DNA of 63,550 nt from a virus (lineage: Duplodnaviria > Caudoviricetes): positions 1 through 63,550 of IMG/VR virus record IMGVR_UViG_3300038856_000075. One strand, given 5' to 3'. Position numbers and translations under genes: made by a program. Below the pieces are notes generated by a model. It saw only the letters and a list, made by a program, of their open reading frames with translations. It was not told the origin of the DNA and made no database searches. Shown one piece after another: positions 24,954-52,722 of the stretch (the stretch's first letter is position 1; every line of letters begins with the position of its first letter).

Positions 24954-27575
24954 TTAAATCTGATCCCAGGCGAAAGTTAAGGTCTCGGCAGCCAAAAGAC
25001 CCCTAGTGGCGCCCACTTCCACTTCCATCACCAGGACCAAGAAGTCGCCGATATATTCGCTCGGAGATCCCTGGGTATAGGGCCCGGGAAAGTGGAAATC
25101 CAGATCGATGGGCGAGGCCGCGGTCGTGCTGAAAAGATCCTGCATGGCTGATGTGGGAGAGCCAGTCGAAGGGTACTCAGGTGGGTCAAAGGCTTCATTC
25201 GGAACGGCCGGCGCCACATAGCCCGCCGAAGTGGCATACCAGATTTTCTCGGTTTCGGGTGATTGTCCTTGGAAACCCTGCCCATCCGAGTAGGCGCGCA
25301 GATTATCGATCTGCGTATAGGCCTGCCCATTGTCGCGAAGGCGAAGGTATTTCTGGTAGGAGTATTCCTGGCCGGACGTTGGCACGATGAGGGGGGCGCT
25401 GGTGTCCAGAGTCGCGTCGTCGGCATTTTTGAAGCGAACACTATCCGACGTCTTGTCGGTAGGTGTTCCTGGGGCGGGGCCGTTCAGTTCGATAATACTA
25501 ATGGTGCCACCGCCGCCGGCGCTCGTCTCCGGCGGCGTCAGCCCGGCCGTGGTGTCGATCTGCACCCAATCCACGGCCCCGTTCGGACCTGACACGCCCT
25601 GGATATTTATGACGAAATTCGTCGTCGTGCGGTACACGCCAACAGCGGTGGCCTCGGTCGTGTCCAGGACGGTCTCGGCGTCGAGCGACAGCGTGATGTC
25701 GCCCGTGAGCCCGTTCCAGGTCATTATGGCAGTGTGATATGCGCCATCGAACGGGTTGGCGGTGGGAACGGAGCCGTCATAATTCAGTCGGGACTGGCCC
25801 TGTAGCTCTAGGCTCGCTCGTAGCGCGCCCGTGCCCAGGACCGTCAGGCTCGGGCATTGCGCGCCGCCGTCGATTATGACCCCTCCCGCCGACGAGTCGT
25901 ATTTGAACCGGACCTGCATACGGAGCATCTGGAAGCCGGAAATCCAGGTGTCCGCGAACGAACCGAAGGCCACCCGTGGGTAGGACGCGCTTCCCGGCAC
26001 GAACGTCGCCGCACGGTTTGGCCCGCCCTCTACGTCCTCGTACGCTTCTGTGCCGGTGAACTCCCATACGGCCTGATCCGGTGGCTTGCCGACGATGCCC
26101 GCCGAGGGCACGGGGTTGAAGCTGCTCAGCACGTCATCGGCGAAATCCAGCCGGAAGATGTTGTAGTGATCCAGCCGGATGGATCGGGTCAGCCCATCAG
26201 CCGTGATGGTGTATTCCCCCGCTTCGGCATAAACGTGCGTCGGTTGGTCCTCGGTCGAGGTCTTTCCGTTCCCAAAGTCCCACGTCCCGACGCTCTGCAA
26301 CGCCTGTGTCGCGTAATTGCGCACTGCGAAGTCGCCTTGCAGCGCTGCGTGCTGACGGTGGTAGGCCGTGAAGTCAATGTAATTGGTCGGGGCCATGCTG
26401 GGTATTTGCGCGCCGCGCGTCTGCGTCTTGCCCGGCAACACGTCGTACTTGGTGATGTCGCGCACCAGTTCGGCCCCTATCGGGTCCACCAACCACCTGT
26501 CGAAGTAATCCGGCGTGGCCGGGAAAAGATTGTTGATGACGGTGTTGCCGGTGCCCTCGTCAAGCACGGAGGTAATCGGCCTGGCGACGATGTTCTCCTG
26601 CACCACGTTGGCATCCGCCCCGGTGCCCTCGCCCGAGAGCGTTATGCCGGGCCGCGCTTGATCGTTGGCGAACTCTTGATTACGGCGGAAATGGACCAGC
26701 GTGTTGTGGTCGATTACGCATTTGTCGCAATTGCCAATTGCAATCCCTTCCGCCGCATTAAGGTGAATGATGTTGTCGTGGATCAGCCACCCAACATGAC
26801 GACCGGAGGCGGGGTTCTCGAAAAATATGCAATTGTTGTCCGTCTGGCCGGCGGTTTCGGTCGTGGTGTTCAAGGACCAGAAATGGTTCTCGTAAATTTC
26901 ACAGTCTAGGCTGCCTCTGCCCACCGACGAGCCGGACCCGCTCTGATAGAAATCAGCATGAGCGCCCAACGGAGGAAAGCTGCCGTTGTTGAAGTTGCGC
27001 CGAACGATCAGCCTGATCTGCCCGGACTGCTGGAAGAAGCCGTCGCCCTCGCGGTCGAGGATTTCGTTGTCTTCGATGATACAGTCCGTGCAATCGTCAA
27101 TCGTGATGCCCGTCTGGACGTCCTGGATGATACACGAGGCGACGGAACAGCGGACGCACTCGCCCGCGTTGTAGCCAATGCGGACGCCGCTGATGGGCTT
27201 GTTGGGCGACGGTGTCCCGGCGGGCGTGCTCTTTATCAGGCACCGCTTGATGTGGGTGTCGATGCACTTGAACATCTCGACGCAGAACCCGACCCCCGTC
27301 GTGTTGCCGCCGTCAAGAATTTCGACGGTTCCTCCAGTGACGATGGACGCCCCATCGACGGTGAGGAAGGTCCACCCATCAATGCTGATCTTGGTGAACG
27401 TCGCCGTGACGCCGGTATCCGCCCGAATTACAACCTCGCTGCCGTAGGTCTGAGGGGTTGCAGGCGTCCAACTTCCGTAGCTGCCGTCCGTCGTAAGGGT
27501 AACGGTATCGCCACCCGACGACGCGGCCAGCGCGGTGTCGAGTTCGGTGGTATCGGCGGCGGTGCGATCAGTCAT
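24954..27575 (-). CDS. Beta-helix (pectate-lyase-like) + PKD + LamG-like protein with a C-terminal domain paralogous to gene 52162..52722
   Basis: Parallel beta-helix repeats with HADFYQ and I.DNII, WDFGNG...PTHVYAEAGEYTI PKD, DGAYHTAIMTWNG LamG-like, GGGG linker, then 182-aa paralog. Confidence 0.85.
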   Translation of the reverse strand: MTDRTAADTTELDTALAASSGGDTVTLTTDGSYGSWTPATPQTYGSEVVIRADTGVTATFTKISIDGWTFLTVDGASIVTGGTVEILDGGNTTGVGFCVEMFKCIDTHIKRCLIKSTPAGTPSPNKPISGVRIGYNAGECVRCSVASCIIQDVQTGITIDDCTDCIIEDNEILDREGDGFFQQSGQIRLIVRRNFNNGSFPPLGAHADFYQSGSGSSVGRGSLDCEIYENHFWSLNTTTETAGQTDNNCIFFENPASGRHVGWLIHDNIIHLNAAEGIAIGNCDKCVIDHNTLVHFRRNQEFANDQARPGITLSGEGTGADANVVQENIVARPITSVLDEGTGNTVINNLFPATPDYFDRWLVDPIGAELVRDITKYDVLPGKTQTRGAQIPSMAPTNYIDFTAYHRQHAALQGDFAVRNYATQALQSVGTWDFGNGKTSTEDQPTHVYAEAGEYTITADGLTRSIRLDHYNIFRLDFADDVLSSFNPVPSAGIVGKPPDQAVWEFTGTEAYEDVEGGPNRAATFVPGSASYPRVAFGSFADTWISGFQMLRMQVRFKYDSSAGGVIIDGGAQCPSLTVLGTGALRASLELQGQSRLNYDGSVPTANPFDGAYHTAIMTWNGLTGDITLSLDAETVLDTTEATAVGVYRTTTNFVINIQGVSGPNGAVDWVQIDTTAGLTPPETSAGGGGTISIIELNGPAPGTPTDKTSDSVRFKNADDATLDTSAPLIVPTSGQEYSYQKYLRLRDNGQAYTQIDNLRAYSDGQGFQGQSPETEKIWYATSAGYVAPAVPNEAFDPPEYPSTGSPTSAMQDLFSTTAASPIDLDFHFPGPYTQGSPSEYIGDFLVLVMEVEVGATRGLLAAETLTFAWDQI

Positions 27576-27582
27576 TTACCCC

Positions 27583-27678
27583 TCACCGTCCCCCGCCATG
27601 GGCGAGCCATACGAGGGTGAAGAAGACGCTTGCGATAACGAAGGCCAGAACGATGCCGATGATCCAGACCCATGTCAT
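27583..27678 (-). CDS. Small membrane peptide (31 aa)
   Basis: MTWVWIIGIVLAFVIASVFFTLVWLAHGGGR; GGAGG RBS. Confidence 0.55.
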   Translation of the reverse strand: MTWVWIIGIVLAFVIASVFFTLVWLAHGGGR

Positions 27679-27687
27679 GACCCCCTC

Positions 27688-27897
27688 CTAGCTCGCGCGG
27701 ATTTGTGCCATCAGCGCGTCGATCTCGGCGAGTTGCAGGGCCACTTCCTCGGGCGTCGGGTCGCGGCCGGCCTCGATCATGGCCTGCACCCTGGCGCGGG
27801 CGGCGTCATAGGACGCCTTACGGGATTGATCCTTGATGGCGGTCTCGGCGACGATATCGACGAGGCCGAGGATCAGGGGGAGATAAGAGACGGGCAT
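27688..27897 (-). CDS. Hypothetical lysis-module protein
   Basis: 69 aa, AGGAGA RBS, follows lipoprotein gene. Confidence 0.65.
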   Translation of the reverse strand: MPVSYLPLILGLVDIVAETAIKDQSRKASYDAARARVQAMIEAGRDPTPEEVALQLAEIDALMAQIRAS

Positions 27898-27907
27898 TGG
27901 GTTCTCC

Positions 27908-28237: not shown

Positions 28238-28238
28238 G

Positions 28239-28569: not shown

Positions 28570-29142
28570 TCAGGTGTCCTTCTTGAAAATGGGCGAACTG
28601 GTGACGGCGCGCAGGATGACGATGGCGAGGCCGATAGCCGCCCCCGCTTCCGGCAGGTGGTCGGCGACGAACGCCTGCATGTCGGGGCCGCTCAACAGCG
28701 ACAGCGCTCCGATGGCGATGCCGAAGACGACGGTTTTCCAGCCTTTCATGGTGATTTCCTTTCGATAGGTCCAGAGGCGCGGCCGGGGACAGCCGGGCGC
28801 GTCGGTGAGGTCGTCCAGGTGGATGAAGCGTTTCGCCAGCGCCCCTTTTTGGTTGAGGCCAATGCCGGTGAAGCCGCGTTGCGTGGCGAGCGTGACGAGC
28901 TGGTAGGCGCGGTCGCCGAATATTGCGATATCGACGGCCCGCCCGGTGGTGTGGGGGCCAGTCAGCCCCGTTGACGAGACCCACGCGTTATGGACGGGCG
29001 TCCGATAGGCCGAGGTCACCATCATGGGCCATCCGAAGGCGGTACGCAGGTCCTGGAGCCGGTCGAGGAAGGTTGGCTCCAGGCGGGCCACGCCGCCATC
29101 CGCTTCCTCGGGTCGGAAGTTCGGCCAGCGCCAGTCGGTCAC
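28570..29142 (-). CDS. Peptidase M15A endolysin fused in frame to a holin-like 2-TM peptide (internal ATG 28749)
   Basis: WPNF..EE...LQDLR...VTSAYR...HN...GPHTTGRAVD...RFIHLD...PRPRLWTY, then RKEIT-MKGWKTVVFG...ILRAVTSSPIFKK. Confidence 0.85.
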   Translation of the reverse strand: MTDWRWPNFRPEEADGGVARLEPTFLDRLQDLRTAFGWPMMVTSAYRTPVHNAWVSSTGLTGPHTTGRAVDIAIFGDRAYQLVTLATQRGFTGIGLNQKGALAKRFIHLDDLTDAPGCPRPRLWTYRKEITMKGWKTVVFGIAIGALSLLSGPDMQAFVADHLPEAGAAIGLAIVILRAVTSSPIFKKDT

Positions 29143-29146
29143 AGGC

Positions 29147-29377
29147 CTATTCTTCCGCCGGCGAGAAATCGAGGTAGTAGCTTTGCCCCACGATGAACGC
29201 GGCGGCTGCCTCGTTATTGATCGTCGACAATTTGACCGAACCCGCCGGTGTATACTTGTAGAACGACTCGTTTTCCGGGCTGCCGCCAGTGACCGGATAC
29301 ATCTCGATGGTGTATCCGCTAGTATTCTCCGTCTTCTCGACACACTCGAATTTCGCGCGAACTGTTTTCATCTTCAT
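29147..29377 (-). CDS. Conserved phage protein
   Basis: VRAKFEC...PVTGGSPENESFYKYTPAG...G.SYYLDFSPA. Confidence 0.8.
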   Translation of the reverse strand: MKMKTVRAKFECVEKTENTSGYTIEMYPVTGGSPENESFYKYTPAGSVKLSTINNEAAAAFIVGQSYYLDFSPAEE

Positions 29378-30924: not shown

Positions 30925-31644
30925 TCAAGCCTGAATGAAGCGGTGGTCGATGTCCCAAGTCTCGCCGCCTGGGTCCAGAATCCTCAGCCGAGGCGAGTCG
31001 GCCGATGCGCCGTCAGTACTGTGGCCGCCCAGGGTCGCCGCAGTGCTAAAATGATGGATCATCGGGAAAAAGCTGTAGGCATTGAGCGTCACGTTGGTCG
31101 AGTTAATACCTTGGGTAGATGCCGTGCCGGTCTTCAGTTCGGCTCGGCCCACGGCTGACGCCGCGATGAAGGCTTGCGTAACGGAGTCGGTCGTGAGCTC
31201 GGTCAGGCCGAGTTGGAACTGGGTTCCGTCATAAATCAGCGGAACCACCCTGCCGGCGATAAGCTCGCCTCCGGTCAAGGCCGTGAGGGATCCGCCCGAA
31301 AACATCTGGATGTCCTTGTTGCCGAGGCCGTTGACGTTTATCGTCGTCGCGCCCGTGTTGTTGCTGGCGATCTCGACCCATACCACCATGCGGTCGGAAT
31401 ACGCGACAAGCGCGGGGCTCAGCGTCAGCGTGATCGCGTTTCCCGTGCCGCCGGCCAGTCCCGCGAGCACGCCGTTCGATTGCAAGTCGGTGATCGTCGG
31501 CACCTTGAACGCGCCGCCGGCGGTCACGCCGTCGTGGAAAACGAGGCGGCCGGTGTCGGTCTCGTAGGAGATTTCGTTCTGCACGCCGGTGAACGACGCC
31601 ATCTCGGCGGCGGTGCCCCGGCGCAGCAACCGTTCTGTGGCCAT
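30925..31644 (-). CDS. Tail fibre with Mtd-like N-terminal domain
   Basis: LRRGTAAE..SFTG...EI.YETDT.RLVFHDG.TAGG; NTGATTINVNGLG. Confidence 0.8.
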   Translation of the reverse strand: MATERLLRRGTAAEMASFTGVQNEISYETDTGRLVFHDGVTAGGAFKVPTITDLQSNGVLAGLAGGTGNAITLTLSPALVAYSDRMVVWVEIASNNTGATTINVNGLGNKDIQMFSGGSLTALTGGELIAGRVVPLIYDGTQFQLGLTELTTDSVTQAFIAASAVGRAELKTGTASTQGINSTNVTLNAYSFFPMIHHFSTAATLGGHSTDGASADSPRLRILDPGGETWDIDHRFIQA

Positions 31645-41606: not shown

Positions 41607-41668
41607 ATTGTTCGATTTTCCTGGTTCCAGGTCTCGATGCGCCGGCTCGTCACCGGGAAGCGGCCTAT

Positions 41669-42460: not shown

Positions 42461-43059
42461 TTCGGTAGCCTCTTGAGACGGCTGACCGTCATGTGCAGAA
42501 TCGCCATGAAGGCGTCCTCGATCGGGCCGTCGTCGGGTTCGGTCGGCACGTGCACATTGATCGACGCCATGCCCCTGAGGCCGCCGCCGTCGCTACCGGT
42601 CATCGCGATCGTCCGCAGCCCCATCTCTTCCGCGGCCCGTATCGCGTTGATCACGTTCTCGGATTGGCCGGACCCAGACAGCCCAACCGCGATGTCGCCC
42701 GGTTGCGCCAACACGCGGAGCTGGCGTTCAAATATCGCCTCGTATCCATGGTCGTTGCCGACGCCGGTCAGCGCCGCGGCGTTGGCGGCCAGGCTGTACG
42801 CGCGCAGTCCGGGCGTGATCGCAACCGACAGGTCGTTGGCCCATTCGTCGGCCAGGGCCGCCTTGCCGCCGTTGCCGAAGAAGTAGACCGCCATCCCCCG
42901 AATGCGCGCGCCCCGGAGCGCGATGATCATCTCCGCCAAGCTTTCCGATTTCACGTTCGACAGGACCTCGCCCAGATAGCGGAAATAGGACTGCGCGAAA
43001 TCGCCGTGGCGGTGGTACCGGTCGTGCATCCGATCTAGTTGCGTTTCCCGATCGCTCAT
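42457..43059 (-). CDS. gmhA: SIS-domain phosphoheptose isomerase-like protein
   Basis: FFGNGG.A, LTGVGNDHGYEAIFERQL, GLSGSGQSENV, MTGSDGG.L, IEDAF. Confidence 0.8.
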   Translation of the reverse strand: MSDRETQLDRMHDRYHRHGDFAQSYFRYLGEVLSNVKSESLAEMIIALRGARIRGMAVYFFGNGGKAALADEWANDLSVAITPGLRAYSLAANAAALTGVGNDHGYEAIFERQLRVLAQPGDIAVGLSGSGQSENVINAIRAAEEMGLRTIAMTGSDGGGLRGMASINVHVPTEPDDGPIEDAFMAILHMTVSRLKRLPK

Positions 43060-43841
43060 GCTTCGTTCAGATCCCTCCATGCAGTTCCGTCCCCGATCTC
43101 GACCGCTGTCCACTGGTTCGCGGCCAACCACGCCGCCCATTCGGCCCGTCCGTCCGGGCGCGGCGGATCCTCGATCCGCGACAGATCGCGGCCGGCCATC
43201 GGCGATGCCGCGCATTTTGCCGTCACGAACGCCGGAACCCCCGCCAGGAGGGCCTCGACGGCGACCCGCGAATCGAACGTCACCACCGCCCAGGCCAGCG
43301 CGAGCGCGACCTCGAACGGCATTTCACCGGGCTTGCGCAGGGGCTTGTCACGGACGATGATCGGGCGGTCCGTGTATTGGCGCAGCGACGCCATCGTCTC
43401 GCTCAGCCACCGGTCGCGGGTCAGCCCGCCGCCATGCAGGTCGAAGTGATAGGCCGATTGCAGGCAGACGAGAATGTCGCGGCCGTTGCGGTGCCAGGGC
43501 CGGATGGGCGGCATATACCGGTCCCGCCGGTCCGCATCACCGCGCCCGATCTCCGTCACTTGCCGCGCGTTGCGCGTGATCCGGAATATCTCGGTCGGTT
43601 GCCCGTCCGCCTTCGCCGGCCCCGGCGCATAGCCGTTGTCGCCGTAGTAGTAGGTCGTCCGCGTCCCCTGGGCCTGGGCCCACAGCACTCTCTGGCGCGG
43701 CGTGATGCCGTAGAAGAACGCCTCGCCGGGAAACAGTGTCTTCGCGTTCTGCGCGATGCGCCCGGCGCAGCCCGACGCGAACAGCCTGGCGAGACGGCGC
43801 GATTTCCGCTTGGCGGAATCGACGTAGCACCAGACGGTCAA
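43056..43841 (-). CDS. Capsule-synthesis (KpsS/KpsC-like) glycosyltransferase, paralog 3
   Basis: YGDNGY...RITRN...PWHRNG..ILVC...RPIIVRDKP...VVTFDSRVAVEALLAGVP. Confidence 0.7.
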   Translation of the reverse strand: MTVWCYVDSAKRKSRRLARLFASGCAGRIAQNAKTLFPGEAFFYGITPRQRVLWAQAQGTRTTYYYGDNGYAPGPAKADGQPTEIFRITRNARQVTEIGRGDADRRDRYMPPIRPWHRNGRDILVCLQSAYHFDLHGGGLTRDRWLSETMASLRQYTDRPIIVRDKPLRKPGEMPFEVALALAWAVVTFDSRVAVEALLAGVPAFVTAKCAASPMAGRDLSRIEDPPRPDGRAEWAAWLAANQWTAVEIGDGTAWRDLNEA

Positions 43842-44647
43842 CCAAGTAACTTCCCGAAGGCGGTTCCGTCCTCGAACTCGCGAGTCGACCACTGCGCCCA
43901 TGACAGTTCCACGAACGCGGGCGCGCGGTCGCCCATGAACGGCTTCTCGACCACCGCGATCCCGCGCCGCGCCGCCTGCCGGGCGACGATGGCGGGGCCG
44001 CAGAATATTGCCGGGATGCCAGCGAGAAGCGCGTCGGTCGCCGCGTTCGACGTGAATACCACCACCGCCCAGGCGTCGGCGAGATGCTCGGCGATGGGCT
44101 CATCGAAATCCAATACGCGGTCGTAACCGCCCTTGGGCATCACCGCCCGGCGCTTGGGATGTGGCCGGTACCAGAGGGGCCGATCGGTGGCCGACCGCAG
44201 TTCCCGCGCGATGTCGTCCGGCCATGTGTTCGGCATCGCCATCTCGTTGTAGCCGAAGCCGCGCTGGCCGCAGACTAGGATGTGATCGCCGTCCTCGCGC
44301 CATGGCGCCACAGGGATATCCCAAGACTGCCACCGTTCGGGACTGCCGACGCGCCAGCGGCCGAAGCCGTTGTGCCCGCCGAGCGCGCAGGCGAAGTATT
44401 TCTCGCCCCCGATATTGCGGATGTAGGCTTCCTCGAACACGAGGGCGTCGCCGCCCGCCGCGATGAAGCGCCGCGTGGCATCGTAAGATGGCCCATAGGC
44501 GTTCCACGTCAGCACCAGGTCGTCGCGCTGCGGCTGCTGGCTGGCGCCCTCGATCACATCGTAGCCGATGGCGCGGAGGCCGGCCTTGAAGCATTCGTGC
44601 CGGCCGTCCTCGAACCGCGACGGCAGCAGGCTGAATGCCCGCTTCAT
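43838..44647 (-). CDS. Capsule-synthesis (KpsS/KpsC-like) glycosyltransferase, paralog 2
   Basis: PWREDGDHILVCGQ...YRPHP...VVFTSNAATDALLAGIP...WAQW. Confidence 0.7.
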   Translation of the reverse strand: MKRAFSLLPSRFEDGRHECFKAGLRAIGYDVIEGASQQPQRDDLVLTWNAYGPSYDATRRFIAAGGDALVFEEAYIRNIGGEKYFACALGGHNGFGRWRVGSPERWQSWDIPVAPWREDGDHILVCGQRGFGYNEMAMPNTWPDDIARELRSATDRPLWYRPHPKRRAVMPKGGYDRVLDFDEPIAEHLADAWAVVVFTSNAATDALLAGIPAIFCGPAIVARQAARRGIAVVEKPFMGDRAPAFVELSWAQWSTREFEDGTAFGKLLG

Positions 44648-45336
44648 TCGCCGGCCCAGCCGAAGAAGTAATCGCCCTTCATGCCGGGCCGGAGTTCGAC
44701 CGCGCCCCAGTCGCGCAGCAGGTCAAGTGCGGCGCCGGGCGTCTCGCCGTAGCGCTGCTCCCAGCCCACGCTTTCGACGATCACGGTCGGGCGGGAGTCG
44801 CGGATCGTCTTCTCGGCGCCCATCAGCACCTTCACCTCGTAGCCCTCGACGTCGATCTTGATCAGGTCGACGTTTCTGAGGCGCAGGCTGTCCAGCGGAC
44901 GGACCTCGGTGACGACGTCGTCGCCCTCGTAATCGGGTGCCGCGGATTCCTCGCCGATATGCGCGCGGCCGGATTGGGCGTTGCCGCTTTTCATCAGGAC
45001 CGTCGCCTTGCCGTCGCCCAGCGCGTAGCGGTGCAGGTCGAGGCGGTTGGCGTTCGCGCCCGTGATATTGCGCATCAGCACCTTGCAATGGGCCGGCATC
45101 GGCTCGAAGGCGTGGACCTTGCGGAAGATGTCGACCATCCACATCGACCATAAACCGACATGCGCGCCGGCATCGACGAATACGCGCCGACCCTTGGTGA
45201 CCTCGAGCGCCGCCTTCATATGGTGCCAGCCGAGGGCGGGACGGCCGTCGAACACGGGGCGCTTGTATCTCTTGCACGGCGCCGTCAGGGCCGCGGCGTA
45301 GTGCTCGTCATCGGCGGGCAGCCAGATGCCGTTCAC
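44644..45336 (-). CDS. FkbM-family methyltransferase (second copy)
   Basis: FVDAGAHVGLWS, HAFEP, VDLIKIDVEGYE; GTG start overlapping the upstream TGA. Confidence 0.9.
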   Translation of the reverse strand: MNGIWLPADDEHYAAALTAPCKRYKRPVFDGRPALGWHHMKAALEVTKGRRVFVDAGAHVGLWSMWMVDIFRKVHAFEPMPAHCKVLMRNITGANANRLDLHRYALGDGKATVLMKSGNAQSGRAHIGEESAAPDYEGDDVVTEVRPLDSLRLRNVDLIKIDVEGYEVKVLMGAEKTIRDSRPTVIVESVGWEQRYGETPGAALDLLRDWGAVELRPGMKGDYFFGWAGE

Positions 45337-46112
45337 GCGCTTCGAAGGTCTATCCACGCTTTGCCGCTCCTGAACTCGTCCAGTGTCCATTGATTCGCCG
45401 CCAGGACCGCCAGCCATTCATGGCGGTTGTCCGGGTAGACCGGCCGCTCGACCTCCCGGATGTTGGTGCTCCCCACCACGGCAGCGGGCGTCGCCCCGGT
45501 CACAAAGACCGGCACGCCGGCGACGATCGCCTCCGTGGTCACGTTGCTGTTGTGCGTGACGAGGCACCACGCGCCCGCTAGGTGTTCGTCAAGCGGGGGC
45601 TGGTATCGGTCGAGGCGTCCGTCGCCCGGCTTGAATCTGATGACGATCTTCCGGTCAGTCATCTGGGCGAGAACGCGCTTGGTTTCGTTCAGCCATTCGA
45701 CGACGTCGAAATGCCAGAACTTGCCGTAGTACGCGATCGGCGGGCAGACCAGCACATAGCCTCCGGCCTTGCGCCACGGCGCGATTTCGATGCCGAGCCG
45801 GTCGAGCCTGTCGAAGTCCGGCCGCCCCCCGCCGTCGCACAGGAAGGCGTTGCGCGTGATCCGGAAATAGCCGTCGTAATGGCCCGGGCCCATGTATCCG
45901 TTGTCGCACAGATACCAGTCGCGCCCGGCCATGATGCACCTGTCGCGGATCAAGTGGTTGTGCCGGGCGATGCCGTAGAAGAACGCCGGGTTATCGTCCT
46001 TCCTCAGCCCGTCGCCCGACCACACCATCCCTGCCCCGGTGCCGGCCTTCATCGCCGAGCAAATGATCTCCGACTTCGGGTGGCCGGTGCAGTAGATCGT
46101 GAGCCCGGTCAT
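45333..46112 (-). CDS. Capsule-synthesis (KpsS/KpsC-like) glycosyltransferase, paralog 1
   Basis: LCDNGY...RITRN...PWRK.G..VLVCPP...LVTHNSNVTTEAIVAGVP...LAANQW. Confidence 0.7.
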   Translation of the reverse strand: MTGLTIYCTGHPKSEIICSAMKAGTGAGMVWSGDGLRKDDNPAFFYGIARHNHLIRDRCIMAGRDWYLCDNGYMGPGHYDGYFRITRNAFLCDGGGRPDFDRLDRLGIEIAPWRKAGGYVLVCPPIAYYGKFWHFDVVEWLNETKRVLAQMTDRKIVIRFKPGDGRLDRYQPPLDEHLAGAWCLVTHNSNVTTEAIVAGVPVFVTGATPAAVVGSTNIREVERPVYPDNRHEWLAVLAANQWTLDEFRSGKAWIDLRSA

Positions 46113-47083
46113 GGGGCGGCGAAGAATTCCTCGGGCGTCTTTACCGGCATCTTCCCCTCGGGCCGAATGGTCGGATTGTCGTCGACCAGGAATTCCGGCT
46201 TGCCGAGCGCGATGGCACCGATCAGCCCATTGCTCTTGACGAAGCGGCGCGCGTATTCGGTTCCCGTGCCCGACCACACGACGATTTTCGCCCCGTCGTC
46301 CAGCATGCGGCGGACCATAGCGATGCGCTCGAGCAGCGGATTGCCGCCGGCGGTGCCGCGATCGGTCAACGTGCCGTCGATGTCGATGTAGACGGGCCGG
46401 TCGTTCATGGGCTCGAAAATGTCATGCAGGTTGACCTTCTTGAAGTACCCGAGCTTGCTTCCGGGCGTCGCGTTCAGGCATTCGATTCCCAATTCGTCCA
46501 GCGGCTTGACCAGGGTATCCATCAGCGGCGTCACGATGTTGCGGTAGAACCCGCCGGGCTTGTGAACCGTCTTCCGCAGGTCGTGCGGATGATGGCCGAA
46601 CCAATGACTCTTGCCGTCGCGCCATTCGTCGTCGAAGTCGAAGCCAATCAAAACGATCCGCGCCACGCCGGTATGCACGGCGATGTTGATCACCTGATGG
46701 CCGGATTGGCGGCCAGTTCGAATGCCGTTCGGCTTGAGGCATAGCCCGCCGTTGTCCTTGGCCGAGTCGTTGCGCAGTACCTTGACCGACGGGTCGACCT
46801 TGGTCACCTCGGCCGAGTTCTCGATCGTCACCTTGAGGCCGGCGAACCGCTTGATGTCGTCGGCGTTCGGCCAATTGCCCCACCAGCCGCTTTGTTCGTT
46901 GAACCACCGCGCGTCGGCGAAGTAGAGCATGTCGGCCCAGGGCGCGAGGCGGAAGGTGTCGTTGACGCAGATCAGGCGCGCCCGGCCGCGGCAGAAATCG
47001 ACCTGCTCCTGCGTCGGAAAGCCGTTGCCGACGATGACCACCGTCTCGCCGGCCCACATGCGGGGAACGGACCAAATGTCCAT
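46109..47083 (-). CDS. Maf/DUF115-like (sialyltransferase-fold) domain fused to HAD phosphatase
   Basis: VVIVGNG...ICVND...AD.LYFAD...SG.Q.IN.A...G..RIVLIGFD...NATPGS; C-terminal YIDIDGTL...VWS...KP...VDD HAD motifs. Confidence 0.72.
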   Translation of the reverse strand: MDIWSVPRMWAGETVVIVGNGFPTQEQVDFCRGRARLICVNDTFRLAPWADMLYFADARWFNEQSGWWGNWPNADDIKRFAGLKVTIENSAEVTKVDPSVKVLRNDSAKDNGGLCLKPNGIRTGRQSGHQVINIAVHTGVARIVLIGFDFDDEWRDGKSHWFGHHPHDLRKTVHKPGGFYRNIVTPLMDTLVKPLDELGIECLNATPGSKLGYFKKVNLHDIFEPMNDRPVYIDIDGTLTDRGTAGGNPLLERIAMVRRMLDDGAKIVVWSGTGTEYARRFVKSNGLIGAIALGKPEFLVDDNPTIRPEGKMPVKTPEEFFAAP

Positions 47084-48615: not shown

Positions 48616-49275
48616 TCATCGCAACCTCTCGACCCTGTCTGCCTGCCAGATAATCGCCGATCCCGAAGCCGCTCGCAAGCCATCCGCGGTCAGATCCTCA
48701 CCCCGATGCTCATAGGCATGGGCCACATACCGCAGAATGCCGTCGCGCAGGCTTTGCGGCACGTCGCCCTGGTCGTCACCGTACCCGGCGACGTAAACGA
48801 TCTCGATGCCGTTCGCCGCCCGCGTCGTGATCGGCATGGCGGCGGAGTTCCGCAGCACCAACCGGCCCGGGGTCGATGCCGTGTCGACAAAGTAGTTGGC
48901 CGACGCATACGCGGTGCCGCTGTCGGCGTCGTCGTAGGTCGTGATCGAGGTCACCGATTGCAGCGGCGGATGGTTGAGCTCGATCGCCCGCAGCGGCGTG
49001 AACAGCTGCGTCTCGGCACCGTCGCGGTAGCCCTCCCATATATCCTCGCTGGCGTGGTCGGAAGGCCAGTAGTCGAGATATGCCGTCCACGTCTGCGTGA
49101 TCAGCGCCCGGCCGGTGAAGGCTTCGCATTGCAGGATCGCCGTCCGCAGCAGCCCCTCGATCAGCGGGTCGTCGGCCACGTCGCTGTCGGGGATGCGAAG
49201 ATGCGCCTTCGCCTCCTGCAAGCCGACGGCGAGCTTGGCCGGTTCCGATGTCCGGCTTTCGCGAAGCCTTCTCAA
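48616..49275 (-). CDS. Head-tail connector (gp6-like)
   Basis: V.L.EAKAHLRI...E.FTGRALITQTW...PLQSVTSI.YD...IVYVAGYG...VP. Confidence 0.92.
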   Translation of the reverse strand: MRRLRESRTSEPAKLAVGLQEAKAHLRIPDSDVADDPLIEGLLRTAILQCEAFTGRALITQTWTAYLDYWPSDHASEDIWEGYRDGAETQLFTPLRAIELNHPPLQSVTSITTYDDADSGTAYASANYFVDTASTPGRLVLRNSAAMPITTRAANGIEIVYVAGYGDDQGDVPQSLRDGILRYVAHAYEHRGEDLTADGLRAASGSAIIWQADRVERLR

Positions 49276-51005
49276 TGAATCCTCCTGGCGGGCGGCACCC
49301 GGAACACGCTTCGCCCGTAAGCCTTGAAGGTGCGGCGTGTCGATGGGCCCAAAGGCTGCACGACTGGTTGCAGAAACGCGTCCATCGACGCAATGGCACT
49401 ATTGGTCCCAAGCACCGCCGAATCCAAGGTCGCCGTGACCGTGCCGCGAATGCCGAGCATGGCGTCGAGGCTGGCGAACAGAGAGACGCCGATGGCCAAG
49501 GCTCCATCGAGGCTGGCGGCGATCGACTTCGCGTCCTGCAACGCAGCGTCGAGGCCGGCGGTGCGGATCGACGCGACGGCGGCGGCCAGAAACGCATCCA
49601 TCGACGCCGTGGCCGAAACCGCGCGCGACAACGCCGCATCGAATGAAGACTGCGCCGTCGTCGTCCGGGCGAGCGCGGCGTCGACGGACGCCTGAGCGGT
49701 GACCCCGCGCGCAACCGCCGCGTCCAGCGACACAGCCAGCGTCTTCCGTGCCTGCAACGCAGCGTCAAGCAGGGCGATAATCTGGCTGCCGCTGGACAGG
49801 AACCCATCGAGGGACGCGGAAACCGTTTTCCCCGCCAGCAGCGCAGCGTCGATGCTCGCGAACGCGCTTGCCTGGATCGCCACGGCGGCGTCGAGATTGG
49901 CCTGCGTCGTCTTGGTGGCGGACACCACGGCGTCGACCACCGCCGCCGCCGTCATGGTCCGGGTCACGGCCGCGTCGAGCGAGGCGGTCAGCGTCTTGGC
50001 GGCCTGCAAAGCGGCATCGATACTCGCCGTGGCCGTCATCGTCGTGGCACCGGCCGCCTGGAGGTTCGCGTCGAGGGACGCGGTGGCGGTGCGGAGAATC
50101 TGCAATGCGGCGTCGAGTTGCGCGGTGCCGGTCTTCCCGTCCTGCAACGCGGCGTCGACCGACGCGGTGGCCGTCACGATTTCGGCGAGATACGCTTCCA
50201 GCGTCATCGTCAGCGTATCTGTCGCTTGCACCGCGGCGTCCACGGACGCGGCTGCGGTCACCGCCTGCTGCACGGCCGCGTCGACAGTGGCGGACGCGGC
50301 GCGCTCTATGGCAATGGCCGCGTCCAGCGACGCCGTGACGCTGTTTGCGGCGCTTCCGACCGACACCTGCGCGTCGAGCGAGGCTGAGGCGGTGCGCAGC
50401 CGCTGGAGGGCGGCATCGATGGAGGTCGCCGCGCTCATGGCCTTCTGCACGATGGCGTCGACCGAAGCGGCGGCGCTGCGCTCGAGCGCGATGGCGGCGT
50501 CCAGACTGGACGTTATCGTCTGTGTCGCCCCACCCGGCGTATAGGTGATGATGACGTCGAAACAGTCGACGTCGATGTCGACGTTGCCCGGCATGCCGGA
50601 CTGGGTGGTCTGGATGAATATCCCCGCCCCGTCGAGTTGGGCCGCTGTCCAGTCGCTGTTCCAGCCCACGTCGTTGAGAGTGCCGGAATTTCCCCAGGTT
50701 GCCGCCGGCAGGAACGCCTGGCCGGTGCCCTGTAAGCTGCCGCCGATGGTCAGCCAGATCGTGAGCCCGTCATCGCCCGGCCGACTCGGTGCCTGCGCCC
50801 GAGCGACGATCGAGACGTTGGTGACGGTATCGCCGTCGGTGATCGCGGAGTCTGTAAGCGCCAGTTCGAGCGTGTCGCCCTCGGTGGCGCCGTTATGCAG
50901 TCCGGTGTCGTCGGCGGTCGCGATGGACTCGAAGATGTCGGCGTCGGTGCCGGACCACAACCCCTTGCTGGTCACCGACGAGACGTTGAGGGTTTCGGTT
51001 GCCAT
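49272..51005 (-). CDS. Fibre-like protein with ~27 tandem 14-aa repeats
   Basis: Globular N-domain followed by xxxTxxASLDAAxQ repeats. Confidence 0.8.
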   Translation of the reverse strand: MATETLNVSSVTSKGLWSGTDADIFESIATADDTGLHNGATEGDTLELALTDSAITDGDTVTNVSIVARAQAPSRPGDDGLTIWLTIGGSLQGTGQAFLPAATWGNSGTLNDVGWNSDWTAAQLDGAGIFIQTTQSGMPGNVDIDVDCFDVIITYTPGGATQTITSSLDAAIALERSAAASVDAIVQKAMSAATSIDAALQRLRTASASLDAQVSVGSAANSVTASLDAAIAIERAASATVDAAVQQAVTAAASVDAAVQATDTLTMTLEAYLAEIVTATASVDAALQDGKTGTAQLDAALQILRTATASLDANLQAAGATTMTATASIDAALQAAKTLTASLDAAVTRTMTAAAVVDAVVSATKTTQANLDAAVAIQASAFASIDAALLAGKTVSASLDGFLSSGSQIIALLDAALQARKTLAVSLDAAVARGVTAQASVDAALARTTTAQSSFDAALSRAVSATASMDAFLAAAVASIRTAGLDAALQDAKSIAASLDGALAIGVSLFASLDAMLGIRGTVTATLDSAVLGTNSAIASMDAFLQPVVQPLGPSTRRTFKAYGRSVFRVPPARRIH

Positions 51006-51271
51006 CAGTTATCGACCCATTGCCAGCAGCACCCGCCGGTCCCCCGCCCTGGCATGTTGTGGGGCCAGTCGCGGCACGACCAATTGAACGCCTCTTCCGC
51101 CGTCATGTGCGGCAATTCGCGGCTGGGCTCCGATGGTAGCGGGTCGATACCGCGCAGGATGCGGCATCCCTCGGCGTCACGGTAAACGCAGTCGCTCCGA
51201 TCTTTATTGGGCCAGCGAGGCGACGCCTTGCAGCAGGCGCCATCGCATTCCCGAACCCGAACCAGTTCCAC
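51005..51271 (-). CDS. Cys-cluster (YkgJ-like) protein
   Basis: CDGACC...C.Y....C.I...CRDWP...CCWQW. Confidence 0.65.
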   Translation of the reverse strand: MELVRVRECDGACCKASPRWPNKDRSDCVYRDAEGCRILRGIDPLPSEPSRELPHMTAEEAFNWSCRDWPHNMPGRGTGGCCWQWVDN

Positions 51272-51273
51272 GC

Positions 51274-51576
51274 CTAACGCCTGCCACCGCGCAACGTGAT
51301 CGACCAAATTTCCGTTCGCCCTTGCGCCGTGACGACGCGGTTGCTGAGGCGATAGATCTGCCCAGCGAGCAGGTTGCTGACAAAGACGCTGGCGATGTTC
51401 CCGGATATCTGGTCGCCGGACAGGATCGGCTCGGAGGGCGACCCCGGATTCTCCGGCTCGATGGTCCACGCCGAGGTCGACAGCGTGTCGCTGGGCGAGC
51501 CGGCTTCGTCGAGATAATCGGACCAGTCGTAGCTATAGTCCGTCGTCGCCTCGAGATCGTGCAGGACGTAGGGCAT
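51274..51576 (-). CDS. Fibre adaptor-like virion protein
   Basis: D.EA..DY..DW..YL...DT.S.S.W...G..Y.L.N.V.T..GRT. Confidence 0.7.
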   Translation of the reverse strand: MPYVLHDLEATTDYSYDWSDYLDEAGSPSDTLSTSAWTIEPENPGSPSEPILSGDQISGNIASVFVSNLLAGQIYRLSNRVVTAQGRTEIWSITLRGGRR

Positions 51577-51876
51577 TCATACGAGCCGGCTGTCGGACAC
51601 GACGATCTGCACGCGACAGTCGACGATGCGGCACTGGACGAACACGCCGTTGAGTTCCGCGATCAGGGTCTGGCGCTGGCGGCTGTCCTTGGCGAAAGGC
51701 TTCATCGTATTGCTGACGTAAGCCAGCGCGGGTTGGCCGTCGAGGCGCTTGGCCGGTGCCGTGTTGCGCCGCGACGGCAGCACCGTGAGGCCGACCAGGG
51801 CGTTGCCTGCGGTCCAGGGGTCGCCGGGATCGCCCGGCCGGACCTCGAGCGGCCCGCCTTCCGTCGCGACGTTCAT
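51577..51876 (-). CDS. Hypothetical protein
   Basis: 99-aa ORF in the late operon. Confidence 0.55.
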   Translation of the reverse strand: MNVATEGGPLEVRPGDPGDPWTAGNALVGLTVLPSRRNTAPAKRLDGQPALAYVSNTMKPFAKDSRQRQTLIAELNGVFVQCRIVDCRVQIVVSDSRLV

Positions 51877-51883
51877 CGTCCTG

Positions 51884-52153
51884 TCACGCCCTGTCGATGC
51901 ATTCGAGCATGTCCTTCTTGTGGCGGATCAGATATCGGTCGACCATCCGCAAAACTTGACTTTTACAGGCGGGAGACACGTCGGTTGTCCGCAGGAATTC
52001 CGCCATTTTATCGGCCATCTCGTCCATCACGTCGGCGAATTCCTCCATCTCTTTGAGGCTGCCGGACAGCGACTCGATTCTTTCAGTGATCGTCGCTCTC
52101 AAAACCGCCGTGCGCTCGTGGATTTGGCCCGGCAAATCGAAATCTTGCATCAT
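51884..52153 (-). CDS. Hypothetical helical protein
   Basis: 89 aa, AGGAGA RBS. Confidence 0.6.
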   Translation of the reverse strand: MMQDFDLPGQIHERTAVLRATITERIESLSGSLKEMEEFADVMDEMADKMAEFLRTTDVSPACKSQVLRMVDRYLIRHKKDMLECIDRA

Positions 52154-52161
52154 GTGTCTCC

Positions 52162-52722
52162 TTAAATTTCATCCCAAGCAAACGTCAGCGTCTCTGCCGT
52201 CAGCAGCCCGTTGGTCGCCCCGACCTCGACCTCCATCACCAGGACCAGGAAGTCGCCGATGAACTCCAGCGGCGAGCCGGGGGTGTAGGGGCCGGGGAAC
52301 GCCCCGTCCATGTCGATGGGCGAGGCCGACGTCGTGGCAAAGAAGTCCAGCATGGCGACGGTCGGCGATCCGGTGTTGGGGTATTCGGGCGGGTCGACGG
52401 TTTCGGTCGGGACTTCGGGCGCGGTGTACCCGGCGCTGGTCGCGTACCAGATCTTCTCGGTTTCCGGGCTCTGGCCCTGGAATCCCTGGCCGTCCGAATA
52501 GGCGCGGATGTTGTCGATCTGGGTGTAGTCATCGCCGTTGTCGCGCAGTCTGAGATACTTCTGATAGGAGTACTCGCGGTCGGCCGTGGGCACGATCAGC
52601 GGGTTGTTGAGATCGACCGTGGCGTCGTCGGCGTTCTTGAAGCGGATGGTGCCGCTGGTCTTGTCGGTCGGCGAGCCGGGAGCGGCGCCGTTGAGTTCGA
52701 TGATGCTGATCGATGCGGGCAT
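52162..52722 (-). CDS. Putative head fibre/filament subunit (paralog of the C-domain of 24954..27575)
   Basis: Strong RBS, beta-rich, EYSYQKYLRL...ETLTFAWDEI; located in head module. Confidence 0.8.
   Translation of the reverse strand: MPASISIIELNGAAPGSPTDKTSGTIRFKNADDATVDLNNPLIVPTADREYSYQKYLRLRDNGDDYTQIDNIRAYSDGQGFQGQSPETEKIWYATSAGYTAPEVPTETVDPPEYPNTGSPTVAMLDFFATTSASPIDMDGAFPGPYTPGSPLEFIGDFLVLVMEVEVGATNGLLTAETLTFAWDEI

What the first reader, a model, noticed from the sequence alone, without database searches (positions are those of the whole stretch)
24954..52722. Duplicated structural subunit: standalone copy in head module and a copy fused to a beta-helix enzyme, suggesting a capsid filament with a specialised tip
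Seen: the last 182 aa of gene 24954..27575 (nt 24954-25502) align without gaps to gene 52162..52722 (35 differences, ~81% identity by hand count). They are joined by a SAGGGGT linker to beta-helix, PKD and LamG-like domains. The standalone copy lies next to an Rcc01079-like spike base, an adaptor and a repeat fibre; the fused copy is the last gene of the late operon, beyond the lysis genes. Established: RcGTA head spikes bind capsular polysaccharide, and Caulobacter phiCbK has a head filament. Inference: a pilus-like design in which an abundant subunit polymerises on the capsid and a low-copy fusion subunit displays a polysaccharide-binding or degrading module.
Basis: partly seen in the sequence, partly recalled or inferred. 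Interest (0 to 1): 0.8.

Follow-up and report, generated by a model that had tools for sequence, protein, structure and literature searches.

The report
Shared fibre-base module carrying an enzyme
An uncultured phage has two copies of a small, widespread and unstudied virion protein, one free beside a repeat fibre gene and one fused behind a sugar-cutting-type enzyme, which suggests a common plug that mounts different heads on the particle.

Summary
The duplication is real. Residues 690-873 of the 873-aa protein (24954-27575, minus strand) align without gaps to residues 3-186 of the 186-aa protein (52162-52722), 147/184 identical. Synonymous sites are saturated, so both copies are old and under purifying selection.

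The 186-aa protein belongs to an unnamed family: 703 representative clusters, found in viruses of bacteria and archaea. It was single-copy and standalone in 48/48 related viral records. It travels with a 14-residue-repeat fibre protein and a small about 80-aa protein. Natural fusions place it behind such repeats, or in front of other cargo.

A complex model docks one terminal repeat unit of the window's fibre protein into the family's most conserved groove. The score was 0.76 against a best control of 0.37.

Best reading: a conserved base or socket module. The fusion loads a bacterial-type beta-helix enzyme onto the same system. A self-polymerising capsid filament with a tip is not supported. 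The capsid location, the LamG domain and the Rcc01079 likeness are unconfirmed.

The scan earlier noted "rope-and-bead" cassettes on other DNA, one with a relative of this protein.

The parts
24954..27575 (-). 873-aa fusion protein (P0001): beta-helix, PKD, unassigned beta-rich region, Gly linker, shared module
   Evidence: Translation; Pfam and NCBIfam hits; Atlas structure neighbours for residues 1-420
26316..27575 (-). Residues 1-420: right-handed parallel beta-helix of bacterial secreted-enzyme type, starting at the first residues with no separate N-terminal anchor
   Evidence: PF13229/PF05048. TM 0.75-0.82 to Pseudomonadota Beta_helix/NosD clusters, one with PKD_4 in 60% of members
26199..26285 (-). 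PKD domain core (residues 431-459)
   Evidence: PF18911 E 2.5e-6, PF00801 E 5e-6; ColH PKD chains in the PDB, E 1.9e-6
24957..25508 (-). Residues 690-873: fused copy of the module, preceded by SAGGGG
   Evidence: 147/184 identical to the standalone copy, no gaps. Sister to it in the tree, SH-aLRT 95, with a longer branch of 0.25 against 0.073. 35/43 predicted groove residues are kept
52162..52722 (-). 186-aa standalone module (P0002), a member of an unnamed viral family
   Evidence: 465 near-length homologues. 703 representatives at E <= 1e-3. AF2 model pLDDT 83.7, all-beta. No Pfam, PHROG or NCBIfam family
49272..51005 (-). 577-aa fibre protein (P0123): 160-aa N-terminal beta domain, 24 units of 14 residues (x-A-S-phi-D-A-A-phi-...), basic C-terminal tail
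   Evidence: Translation; unit profile. Homologues lie near the module in 43/80 viral loci. C-terminal tail motifs are shared
49404..49454 (-). Fibre residues 518-534 (GIRGTVTATLDSAVLGT, penultimate unit): predicted docking strand
   Evidence: Interface of the complex model, score 0.76 against best control 0.37; sequence
51274..51576 (-). 100-aa collar-like protein, Pfam PF23148 (GP4 gp77 fiber-tail adaptor)
   Evidence: E 4.2e-15, 56.5 bits, cut-off 27. Weak phmmer hit to 8jou_D. Over the cut-off in only 8/49 related records
51577..51876 (-). 99-aa protein of a small family usually found directly downstream of the module
   Evidence: Family present in 40/80 loci, at position +1 in 35; conserved C-terminal ELDGVRVY...VTR motif
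51884..52153 (-). 89-aa protein of unknown role lying between the module and the 99-aa gene
   Evidence: ORF with coding GC3; only weak PHROG hits
27583..27678 (-). 31-aa hydrophobic ORF ending 7 nt before the fusion gene
28570..29343 (-). Endolysin-like gene of the lysis cassette upstream of the fusion
   Evidence: phrog_894 E 4e-17
24837..24866 (-). Terminator-like hairpin (13 pairs, 9 G-C, T-run) closing the late operon

Best explanation
The 186-aa protein is a conserved beta-sandwich 'base/socket' module of an accessory virion fibre.

Its most conserved surface is a groove formed by the N-terminal strand, the KTSGTIRFK loop and the C-terminal strand. This groove takes up a strand from the C-terminal end of the repeat fibre protein (49272-51005). 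That fibre's variable N-terminal head would point outwards.

The 873-aa protein carries an old paralogue of the module behind a bacterial-type beta-helix/PKD carbohydrate-active enzyme. The enzyme would therefore be mounted through the same module, on the same virion sites or on the same fibre. The particle would then carry both a binding fibre and a polysaccharide-degrading head.

Shown:
- the duplication and purifying selection on both copies;
- the family's spread and single-copy norm;
- gene linkage with the repeat protein;
- natural fusions with other cargo.

Predicted only: the groove-strand contact.

Inferred:
- presence in the virion and the attachment site (capsid or neck collar);
- copy number per fibre (one at the base, or many along it);
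- enzyme activity.
For: Duplication and selection:
- 147/184 identical, no gaps.
- Nucleotide identity is only 386/552. pS is 0.79 (saturated) and pN is 0.144. Only 60 of the 147 identical residues share a codon.
- The fused copy is sister to the window's own standalone copy, SH-aLRT 95.

Family:
- 465 homologues of 102-326 aa and 703 representatives at E <= 1e-3.
- Single standalone copy in 48/48 related viral records and in 5/5 bacterial genomes.
- Found in Kiloniellaceae, Rhodospirillales, Azohydromonas, Rickettsiales, Desulfobacterales, Eubacteriales, Bathyarchaeia and Methanomicrobia contigs.
- Its identity exceeds that of the capsid protein in 12 of 13 loci where both were printed. That fits a phage-internal partner better than a host receptor.

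Linkage:
- Repeat-protein homologues occur in 43/80 loci. In 13 of them the gene is directly upstream of the module.
- The 99-aa family occurs in 40/80 loci.

Natural fusions:
- Four representatives of about 440 aa have head, then repeats, then module.
- Their linker matches fibre repeats in other loci at E 2e-5.
- One 558-aa protein has cargo behind the module.

Complex model:
- Two copies of the module plus fibre residues 440-577 scored 0.74, 0.82 and 0.76 (median 0.76). Controls scored 0.37, 0.00 and 0.00.
- That mark was reached by 58 of 80 solved complexes and 2 of 110 mismatched pairs.
- The runs agree in at least 61% of contacts. Partner pLDDT is at least 37.
- The interface is fibre residues 518-534 against module residues 3, 5-7, 21-29, 38, 41-44, 52, 59, 89, 91, 161, 163, 165 and 169-186.
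- These columns are more conserved than the rest (0.84 against 0.69). The fused copy keeps 35/43 of them.
- R27, P41, P45 and E177 are invariant in 81/81 sequences.

Structure of a natural fusion:
- The AF2 model has a jelly-roll head whose weak neighbours include phage receptor-binding heads (Tuc2009 RBP head, Z 6.8, rmsd 3.5, 94 aligned; PRD1 P5, Z 6.0).
- The repeat stretch is helical, followed by the module at pLDDT 88-98.

Cargo:
- Residues 1-420 match a bacterial beta-helix fold, TM 0.75-0.82.
- There is no separate N-terminal anchor in the sequence.
Against: - No experiment shows that either protein is in virions.
- The groove-strand contact is a model only. The partner's own fold is uncertain (pLDDT 37-46).
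- AF2 predicts the equivalent repeats as helix, pLDDT 68-82. Strand docking could be an artefact, or restricted to the last units.
- The predicted R27-Asp contact is not backed by covariation. R27 is invariant, yet the Asp position is mostly Ser/Asn/Gly/Ala in roughly half of the homologous repeat proteins.
- The four fusion representatives have Val at the R27 position.
- The gp77-like collar is over the cut-off in only 8/49 related records, and in 1 of 7 near-complete ones. The attachment site is therefore unknown.
- The fusion gene lies behind the lysis genes, outside the structural block. That also fits a soluble enzyme.
- No relative of the fusion's whole architecture was found.
Confidence: 0.45

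Rival explanations
1. Rope-and-bead (chain-like) fibre. The 24 repeat units are an extended 'rope'. Each unit, or pair of units, docks a copy or a dimer of the 186-aa 'bead', as in podophages GP4, VP1 and A1002. The fusion would be a second bead type that carries an enzyme.
For: - A gp77-family collar gene lies in the cassette.
- The fibre has 24 regular units with an invariant Asp and two invariant hydrophobic positions.
- One unit is predicted to augment the module's sheet.
- The module's size (162-190 aa) is near the 140-171 aa quoted for the solved beads. A1002 uses two paralogous bead proteins on one rope (passages of PMC13730344; PMC12609058).
- Earlier scan notes read a relative the same way. 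Those notes are leads, not evidence.
Against: - The repeats in a natural fusion are predicted helical.
- The repeat region weakly resembles SMC coiled coil: E 6e-6, far below the cut-off.
- Natural fusions have only 3-4 units.
- The Asp is not conserved among homologues although R27 is invariant.
- The module has no sequence match to solved chains.
- The collar is over the cut-off in only 8/49 related records.
Confidence: 0.2
2. Soluble lysis-associated enzyme. The 873-aa protein is released at lysis and is not part of the particle. The shared domain would then be a carbohydrate-binding module that both the fibre tip and the enzyme use to find the same host polysaccharide.
For: - It is the last gene of the late operon. 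It lies 7 nt after a small membrane ORF of the lysis cassette and has no promoter-like site of its own.
- The cargo resembles bacterial secreted beta-helix plus PKD proteins rather than phage spikes.
- PHROG 'tail spike' similarity is marginal, E 0.047.
Against: - The domain is at least as conserved as the capsid protein.
- It occurs in viruses of Proteobacteria, Firmicutes-type MAGs and archaea. A receptor-binding module would be expected to vary with host.
- Its conserved surface is predicted to bind the phage's own fibre protein.
Confidence: 0.12
3. Fibre assembly chaperone. The 186-aa protein binds the C-terminal end of the repeat fibre only during folding. This would be like tail-fibre assembly proteins encoded after fibre genes (comparison recalled, not tested). 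The fused copy would act in cis.
For: - The gene order fibre then module is seen in 13/80 viral loci, and in 5 of 6 Kiloniellales prophage loci examined (L113, L115-L118; in L119 only a 233-aa frame lay upstream).
- Binding is predicted near the fibre's C-terminal end.
Against: - A single-chain bacterial-type beta-helix is unlikely to need such a helper.
- Cargo can also sit behind the module (P0147).
- In about 30 loci the fibre gene is several genes away.
- Conservation is unusually high and covers the full length.
Confidence: 0.12
4. The standalone subunit polymerises by itself into a capsid filament, and the fusion is a low-copy tip subunit.
For: - By their titles, about 23 of the 50 best structural neighbours are subunits of chaperone-usher pili or other strand-complemented fibres (my classification). 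All are weak, Z 3.9-5.3, against a best row of Z 5.6.
- The gene lies close to the capsid gene.
- The domain order, cargo N-terminal and subunit domain C-terminal, recalls two-domain pilus tip adhesins (recalled).
Against: - Z is below the range at which the tool says a match means more than a common arrangement.
- Foldseek found nothing at E <= 0.001.
- The AF2 monomer is a complete, confident sandwich.
- The strand predicted in the groove comes from the fibre protein, not from another subunit.
- Homo-oligomers were not tested.
Confidence: 0.08

Closest known systems
Chain-like fibres of podophages GP4, VP1 and A1002 and the collar/whisker of myophage Bas63. Read as passages of PMC13730344 and PMC12609058. 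The GP4 paper itself (J Mol Biol 2023) was not read.
   Same: A small all-beta protein is encoded beside a protein with tandem units and beside a gp77-family collar (PF23148 met here). Attachment is by adding a strand of the carrier to the small protein's sheet. In A1002, two paralogous small proteins sit on one carrier.
   Different: No sequence or clear fold match between this module and the solved beads. The units here are 14 Ala-rich residues, and equivalent units in a related natural fusion are predicted helical. The phage is a siphophage and the cassette sits in the head-neck block. One paralogue is fused to an enzyme. The collar is missing from most related records.
Depolymerase tailspikes that share a conserved anchor domain within one phage (multi-spike Klebsiella and Escherichia phages; recalled, no paper read here)
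   Same: One conserved attachment module is combined with different carbohydrate-active heads. A right-handed beta-helix is the active part.
   Different: The shared module here is C-terminal, not N-terminal. It also exists as a free, highly conserved protein in the head-neck block. The beta-helix resembles bacterial secreted proteins with PKD domains. The gene lies after the lysis genes.
Chaperone-usher pili and other donor-strand-complemented fibres, with two-domain tip adhesins (recalled)
   Same: A beta-sandwich with a groove between its first and last strands is predicted to take a strand in trans. The fused form has cargo in front of the subunit-like domain.
   Different: Similarity is weak (Z <= 5.6). 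The strand donor is a different protein. There is no chaperone or usher context. Self-polymerisation is not shown.
Capsid decoration proteins used as display scaffolds (T4 Hoc, lambda gpD, phi29 head fibre gp8.5; recalled. The review PMC7602432 was seen only in a search listing.)
   Same: The gene lies next to the capsid gene. A small accessory structural protein tolerates large fusions at either end.
   Different: No fold match to the known decoration families was seen. Capsid binding was not tested.

Membership tests
Chain-like (rope-and-bead) fibre, GP4/VP1/A1002 type | Collar / fibre-tail adaptor of the gp77 family | tested here: met
   51274-51576: PF23148 E 4.2e-15, 56.5 bits against a cut-off of 27. 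Over the cut-off in only 8/49 related records.
Chain-like (rope-and-bead) fibre, GP4/VP1/A1002 type | Bead protein of the gp80/gp11/gp40 fold | tested here: inconclusive
   No Pfam hit at E <= 1. A profile search against PDB sequences gave only one hit, at E 1.3. None of these chains is among the 50 rows shown by VIA-align.
Chain-like (rope-and-bead) fibre, GP4/VP1/A1002 type | Extended rope with tandem docking sites, each taking a bead dimer by sheet augmentation | tested here: inconclusive
   24 units of 14 residues. One unit is predicted docked, score 0.76 against best control 0.37. Equivalent units are predicted helical in a natural fusion. No Arg-Asp covariation. Dimerisation was not scored.
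Donor-strand-complemented pilins | Ig-like sandwich completed by a strand in trans | tested here: inconclusive
   Best Z 5.6; pilin rows at Z 3.9-5.3. Foldseek probability <= 0.6 at E >= 0.016. A strand between the first and last strands appears only in the complex model.
Tailspike depolymerase with N-terminal virion anchor | Conserved anchor domain at the N-terminus | tested here: not met
   The shared domain is residues 690-873. The beta-helix fold match starts at residue 1.
Tailspike depolymerase with N-terminal virion anchor | Right-handed parallel beta-helix body | tested here: met
   PF13229 30.6 bits (cut-off 25.9) and PF05048 30.0 bits (cut-off 23.6). TIGR03804. TM 0.75-0.82.
Tailspike depolymerase with N-terminal virion anchor | Catalytic activity on host polysaccharide; trimer | not testable with these tools
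   No close characterised relative was found.
RcGTA head spike (Rcc01079 base / Rcc01080 fibre) | Sequence similarity of a neighbouring gene to the solved spike proteins | tested here: not met
   phmmer of the 147-, 108-, 90- and 99-aa neighbours and of the 577-aa fibre against all PDB chains gave no RcGTA chain. Fold-level likeness was not tested.
Capsid decoration proteins | Known decoration fold and capsid binding | tested here: inconclusive
   No such chain is among the rows for the module. Binding is not testable here.

The most novel reading that the evidence does not exclude
A very widespread, unnamed module is a universal 'socket'. It has at least 703 clusters at 50% identity and occurs in tailed viruses of both Bacteria and Archaea. 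A donor strand from a fibre protein completes it. Phages use it as a natural display system with inverted polarity, with the head at the N-terminus and the base at the C-terminus. By gene fusion or by docking, the same socket mounts interchangeable carbohydrate-binding or carbohydrate-degrading heads on the particle. This phage carries two such heads at once.
Probability: 0.3. Interest if true: 0.75.

Novelty: new variant of a known kind. Interest (0 to 1): 0.55.

Why it matters
The module has no name in Pfam, PHROGs or NCBIfam. It has almost no relatives in cultured phages: 1 partial hit in 50,697 records. Yet it is common in uncultured phages and is at least as conserved as the capsid protein.

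If it is a general plug for accessory fibres and enzymes, three things follow:
- A block of 'hypothetical' genes in the head-neck region of many phage genomes would be explained.
- There would be a rule for spotting virion-borne enzymes that lack a classical N-terminal anchor.
- It would be a compact natural scaffold that tolerates large fusions at either end.

The groove-strand prediction can be tested directly with two small recombinant proteins.

Tried and rejected
- **Close phage relatives.** Megablast of 24.6 kb of the late region against 50,697 phage records found no match. tblastn of the module gave one partial hit: residues 1-79, 36.7% identity, in a Methanosarcinales virus.
- **Fold searches of the module model.** Foldseek found nothing at E <= 0.001 against PDB or BFVD. 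VIA-align wide gave a best Z of 5.6. No GP4, VP1 or A1002 fibre chain is among the 50 rows shown, which does not exclude them.
- **Sequence searches of the module.** The profile against PDB sequences gave one hit at E 1.3. The Atlas returned only unnamed viral clusters.
- **Relatives of the cargo (residues 1-685).** The word-based search returned 14 hits, all covering only 4-11% of the query, consistent with the PKD stretch alone, and was capped at 7,999 candidates. Viral contigs gave none. PDB sequences matched only PKD domains.
- **'Longer' search with the module.** It found one protein and missed the window's own fusion, so it is weak evidence on the rarity of fusions.
- **Arg27-Asp covariation** between the module and the repeat proteins was not found.
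- **The collar as an obligatory partner** was rejected: 8/49 records over the cut-off.
- **RcGTA-like neighbours:** none by sequence.
- **Cargo of P0147:** no Pfam, NCBIfam or PDB match.
- **tblastn of the collar-like protein** against phages gave 8 weak, uninformative hits.
- **Paper search** for 'GP4' plus 'fiber-tail adaptor' returned 0 papers.
- **Other features.** No reverse transcriptase despite an Mtd_N hit on the 239-aa tail protein. No tRNA genes.
- **Gene calling.** The first neighbour clustering was spoiled by overlapping wrong-frame ORFs and was redone. Gene calling in the loci is my own crude longest-ORF method on one strand.
- **Not read.** Supplementary files of the papers were not consulted. 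Bead and rope sequences or tables there might bear on the comparison.

Full report
**What the window is**

The window is a complete viral record of 63,550 bp with direct terminal repeats. I called genes by third-position GC and named them with PHROGs and Pfam. All late genes lie on the minus strand, in this order:

1. Large terminase (59013-60563) and portal (56929-59013).
2. Protease (55206-56291) and major capsid protein (53863-55182).
3. Three small genes of 147, 108 and 90 aa.
4. The 186-aa gene (52162-52722).
5. Genes of 89, 99 and 100 aa.
6. A 577-aa repeat protein (49272-51005).
7. Head-tail adaptor, head closure, neck and tail terminator.
8. A block of about 8 kb of sugar-modifying genes.
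9. Major tail protein, chaperone, tape measure, distal tail protein, a J-like fibre protein and a 239-aa tail protein.
10. An endolysin-like gene (28570-29343) and small membrane-type ORFs.
11. The 873-aa gene (24954-27575).

A terminator-like hairpin at 24866-24837 closes the operon. The 873-aa gene starts 7 nt after a 31-aa hydrophobic ORF. The phage is a siphophage. Its nearest syntenic relatives are prophage regions in Kiloniellaceae MAGs.

- Residues 690-873 of the long protein align to residues 3-186 of the short one: 147/184 identities, no gap, E 2e-103. These are the only two copies in the record.
- The SAGGGG linker is there.
- The beta-helix and PKD domains are confirmed.
- A LamG domain is not confirmed. 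No such Pfam hit appeared at E <= 1, and I could not fold that region.
- The 'Rcc01079-like' neighbour is not supported by sequence.

**Age and origin of the duplication**

- At the DNA level the copies are only 386/552 identical, and 110 of the 166 differences fall at third codon positions.
- The proportion of synonymous differences is 0.79, which is saturated. The non-synonymous proportion is 0.144. Only 60 of the 147 identical residues use the same codon.
- In a tree of 42 family members, the fused copy is sister to the window's own standalone copy (SH-aLRT 95). Both sit in a four-member clade (support 100). The fused copy's branch is longer, 0.25 against 0.073.

So this is an old duplication within the lineage. 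Both copies are kept by selection, and the fused one has changed faster.

**The family**

- The short protein has no Pfam, PHROG or NCBIfam family.
- It has one partial hit in 50,697 deposited phage genomes.
- It has 465 homologues of similar length in the large protein collection, 157 viral contigs, and 703 representatives at E <= 1e-3 in the 50%-identity library.
- Contigs that carry it are labelled Kiloniellaceae, Rhodospirillales, Azohydromonas (two cultured strains), Rickettsiales, Desulfobacterales, Eubacteriales, Bathyarchaeia and Methanomicrobia.
- It is strongly conserved over its full length. R27, P41, P45 and E177 are invariant in 81/81 sequences, and K21 in 80/81.
- In 12 of 13 loci where both proteins were matched and printed, its identity to the window's protein is higher than that of the capsid protein. 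The exception is L004.
- It is single-copy and standalone in 48/48 related viral records, 6 of them at least 90% complete, and in 5/5 bacterial genomes.

The second, fused copy is therefore special to this phage among everything I could examine.

**Company it keeps**

I called ORFs crudely (longest ORF, one strand) around 80 viral loci and clustered them.

- A family of small proteins, to which the window's 99-aa gene belongs, is present in 40/80 loci. It is the next gene in 35 of them.
- Homologues of the 577-aa repeat protein are present in 43/80 loci. In 13 they lie directly upstream of the module.
- In five Kiloniellaceae prophage loci (L113, L115-L118) a repeat protein of 494-675 aa ends just before the module gene; in L119 only a 233-aa frame lay there.
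- These repeat proteins have varied N-terminal globular parts, then 14-residue units, then one of two endings. One is a basic tail with short motifs such as RTFKA, FRV or FTVH. The other is a different globular end.
- In the window's protein there are 24 units. Two positions are hydrophobic in 24/24 units, with an Asp between them in 24/24.
- The 100-aa gene meets the Pfam model for the GP4 gp77 fibre-tail adaptor. That family is over its cut-off in only 8/49 related records, and in 1 of the 7 near-complete ones. When present it usually lies right after the module gene.

**Natural fusions**

Among the best 150 representatives, five exceed 250 aa.

- Four proteins of about 440 aa consist of a head of about 215 aa, three or four fibre-type units, and the module at the C-terminus. 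The unit stretch of one of them matches repeat proteins of other loci at E 2e-5.
- One 558-aa protein has the module at the N-terminus, followed by about 380 residues with no recognisable family.
- Others carry inserts in a central loop.

So the module does occur with different cargo, at either end.

**Structure**

- AF2 with 37 sequences gives an all-beta sandwich, pLDDT 83.7.
- Foldseek finds nothing significant.
- An exhaustive alignment against 48,161 chains gives a best Z of 5.6. By their titles, about 23 of the 50 rows are subunits of chaperone-usher pili or other strand-complemented fibres, at Z 3.9-5.3 (my classification). The tool warns that such values may reflect only a common arrangement.
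- AF2 of a natural fusion (50 rows, pLDDT 78.5) gives three parts: a jelly-roll head, a helix over the repeat stretch (residues 221-262, pLDDT 68-82), and the module at pLDDT 88-98.
- The head's weak neighbours include phage receptor-binding heads and TNF/C1q-like knobs, at Z 6-7.

**Does the module bind the fibre?**

I used the one complex job on two copies of the module (with its alignment) and residues 440-577 of the repeat protein.

- The three runs scored 0.74, 0.82 and 0.76 (median 0.76). Controls scored 0.37, 0.00 and 0.00.
- The tool states that this mark was reached by 58 of 80 solved complexes and 2 of 110 mismatched pairs. It adds that these counts hold only roughly here.
- The runs share at least 61% of their contacts. 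The partner's pLDDT is only 37-46.
- The interface is one stretch, residues 518-534 (GIRGTVTATLDSAVLGT, the penultimate unit). It lies against the module's N-terminal strand, the 21-29 loop and the C-terminal strand. Residues 522-525 pair with 179-182, and Asp528 lies next to R27.
- The interface columns are the family's most conserved, 0.84 against 0.69. The fused copy keeps 35/43 of them, against 112/141 elsewhere.

This supports binding but does not show it.

**What speaks against a simple reading**

- The Arg-Asp contact is not confirmed by covariation. In about half of the homologous repeat proteins the Asp position is mostly Ser, Asn, Gly or Ala, while R27 never changes.
- The four fusion representatives have Val at the R27 position.
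- The helix prediction for the units and a faint SMC coiled-coil resemblance argue that the array is a shaft, not an extended rope.

I therefore prefer a model with one module, or one small oligomer, at the C-terminal base of a fibre whose variable head is at the N-terminus. I keep the many-beads-on-a-rope model as the main rival.

The rope design is real in other phages. Passages of PMC13730344 and PMC12609058 describe it as follows:
- small beta proteins of 140-171 aa form dimers;
- the dimers add to a rope by sheet augmentation;
- the collar is gp77-like;
- in A1002, two paralogous bead proteins sit on one rope.

**The fusion**

- Residues 1-420 match bacterial right-handed beta-helix proteins at TM 0.75-0.82. 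One matching cluster has PKD domains in 60% of its members.
- No separate N-terminal anchor is present, so the only candidate attachment element is the C-terminal module.
- The cargo has no detectable relatives in viral contigs.

The most economical reading is that a bacterial-type carbohydrate-active enzyme gene was joined to a duplicate of the phage's fibre-base module. The rival reading is a soluble enzyme released at lysis that uses the module as a sugar-binding domain. That fits the gene's position. It fits poorly with a module conserved across viruses of very different hosts.

**Where on the particle?**

This is unknown.

- The gp77-like collar gene in this cassette fits a neck appendage.
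- I could not test either.

**Earlier notes of this scan**

After I had reached the rope idea from the Pfam hit and the papers, a look-up showed that the scan had already described 'rope-and-bead' cassettes on other genomes. One of them shares short words with this module and was read as an undescribed sister type of bead (e1-5901968). Another describes a 14-residue Glu-anchored repeat beside a conserved beta protein (e1-5659065). These are unchecked notes. I treat them as agreement in reading, not as evidence.

**Verdict**

It is unsupported in its specifics: a self-polymerising capsid filament, a tip position, and the RcGTA likeness. The finding is a new variant of known modular fibre and spike designs, built on an unnamed and very widespread family. 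It offers a concrete, cheap binding test.

Noticed in passing
window 39279-47083 (minus strand): About 8 kb of sugar-modifying genes sit between the tail terminator and the major tail protein. They include a sialyltransferase/MptE-like protein (phrog_4603 E 5e-28), a SIS-domain protein (PF13580 E 5e-14), a weak heptosyltransferase-like hit, two methyltransferases (phrog_8156) and several paralogous genes of 269-314 aa. The block is conserved at the same place in Kiloniellaceae prophages and in related viral contigs. It may glycosylate virion proteins.
   Followed up: partly
window 30925-31644 (minus strand): The 239-aa tail protein has an Mtd_N domain (PF18454, E 6e-11). No reverse transcriptase is present in the genome, so there is no sign of a diversity-generating retroelement.
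   Followed up: partly
loci L014, L017, L018, L028, L113-L118 and window 49272-49360: Repeat fibre proteins of many loci end in a shared basic tail with two or three short motifs (RTFKA, FRV, FTVH) after a last unit that has an aromatic residue (phi-D-A-[YF]-phi). Another set ends in a globular part with an EIWQRLGLDP motif. The role of the basic tail is unknown. It was not part of the predicted interface.
   Followed up: partly
window 51577-51876 and position +1 in 35 loci: A small family of about 80 aa, with a conserved C-terminal ELDGVRVY...VTR...P motif, nearly always follows the module gene. It has no family or PDB match. It could be the link to the virion, or a helper.
   Followed up: partly
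loci L040/L041 (ORF of about 1600 codons, 5.7 kb downstream of the module) and L010 (1237 aa): Very long proteins carry the same 14-residue units behind large multi-domain N-terminal parts. This suggests the repeat shaft is grafted onto many kinds of heads.
   Followed up: no
window 1204-24410: The rest of the genome encodes a DnaB-like helicase, two DNA methyltransferases, ParB-like proteins and an exonuclease VIII/RecT pair. No integrase was seen among the ten proteins tested. There are no tRNA genes.
   Followed up: partly
phage record BK063673.1, 34167-34397: The only deposited phage genome with a match to the module is a Methanosarcinales virus, and only over residues 1-79. Together with the Bathyarchaeia and Methanomicrobia contigs (L138, L139), this shows that the N-terminal half of the fold is shared with archaeal viruses.
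   Followed up: no
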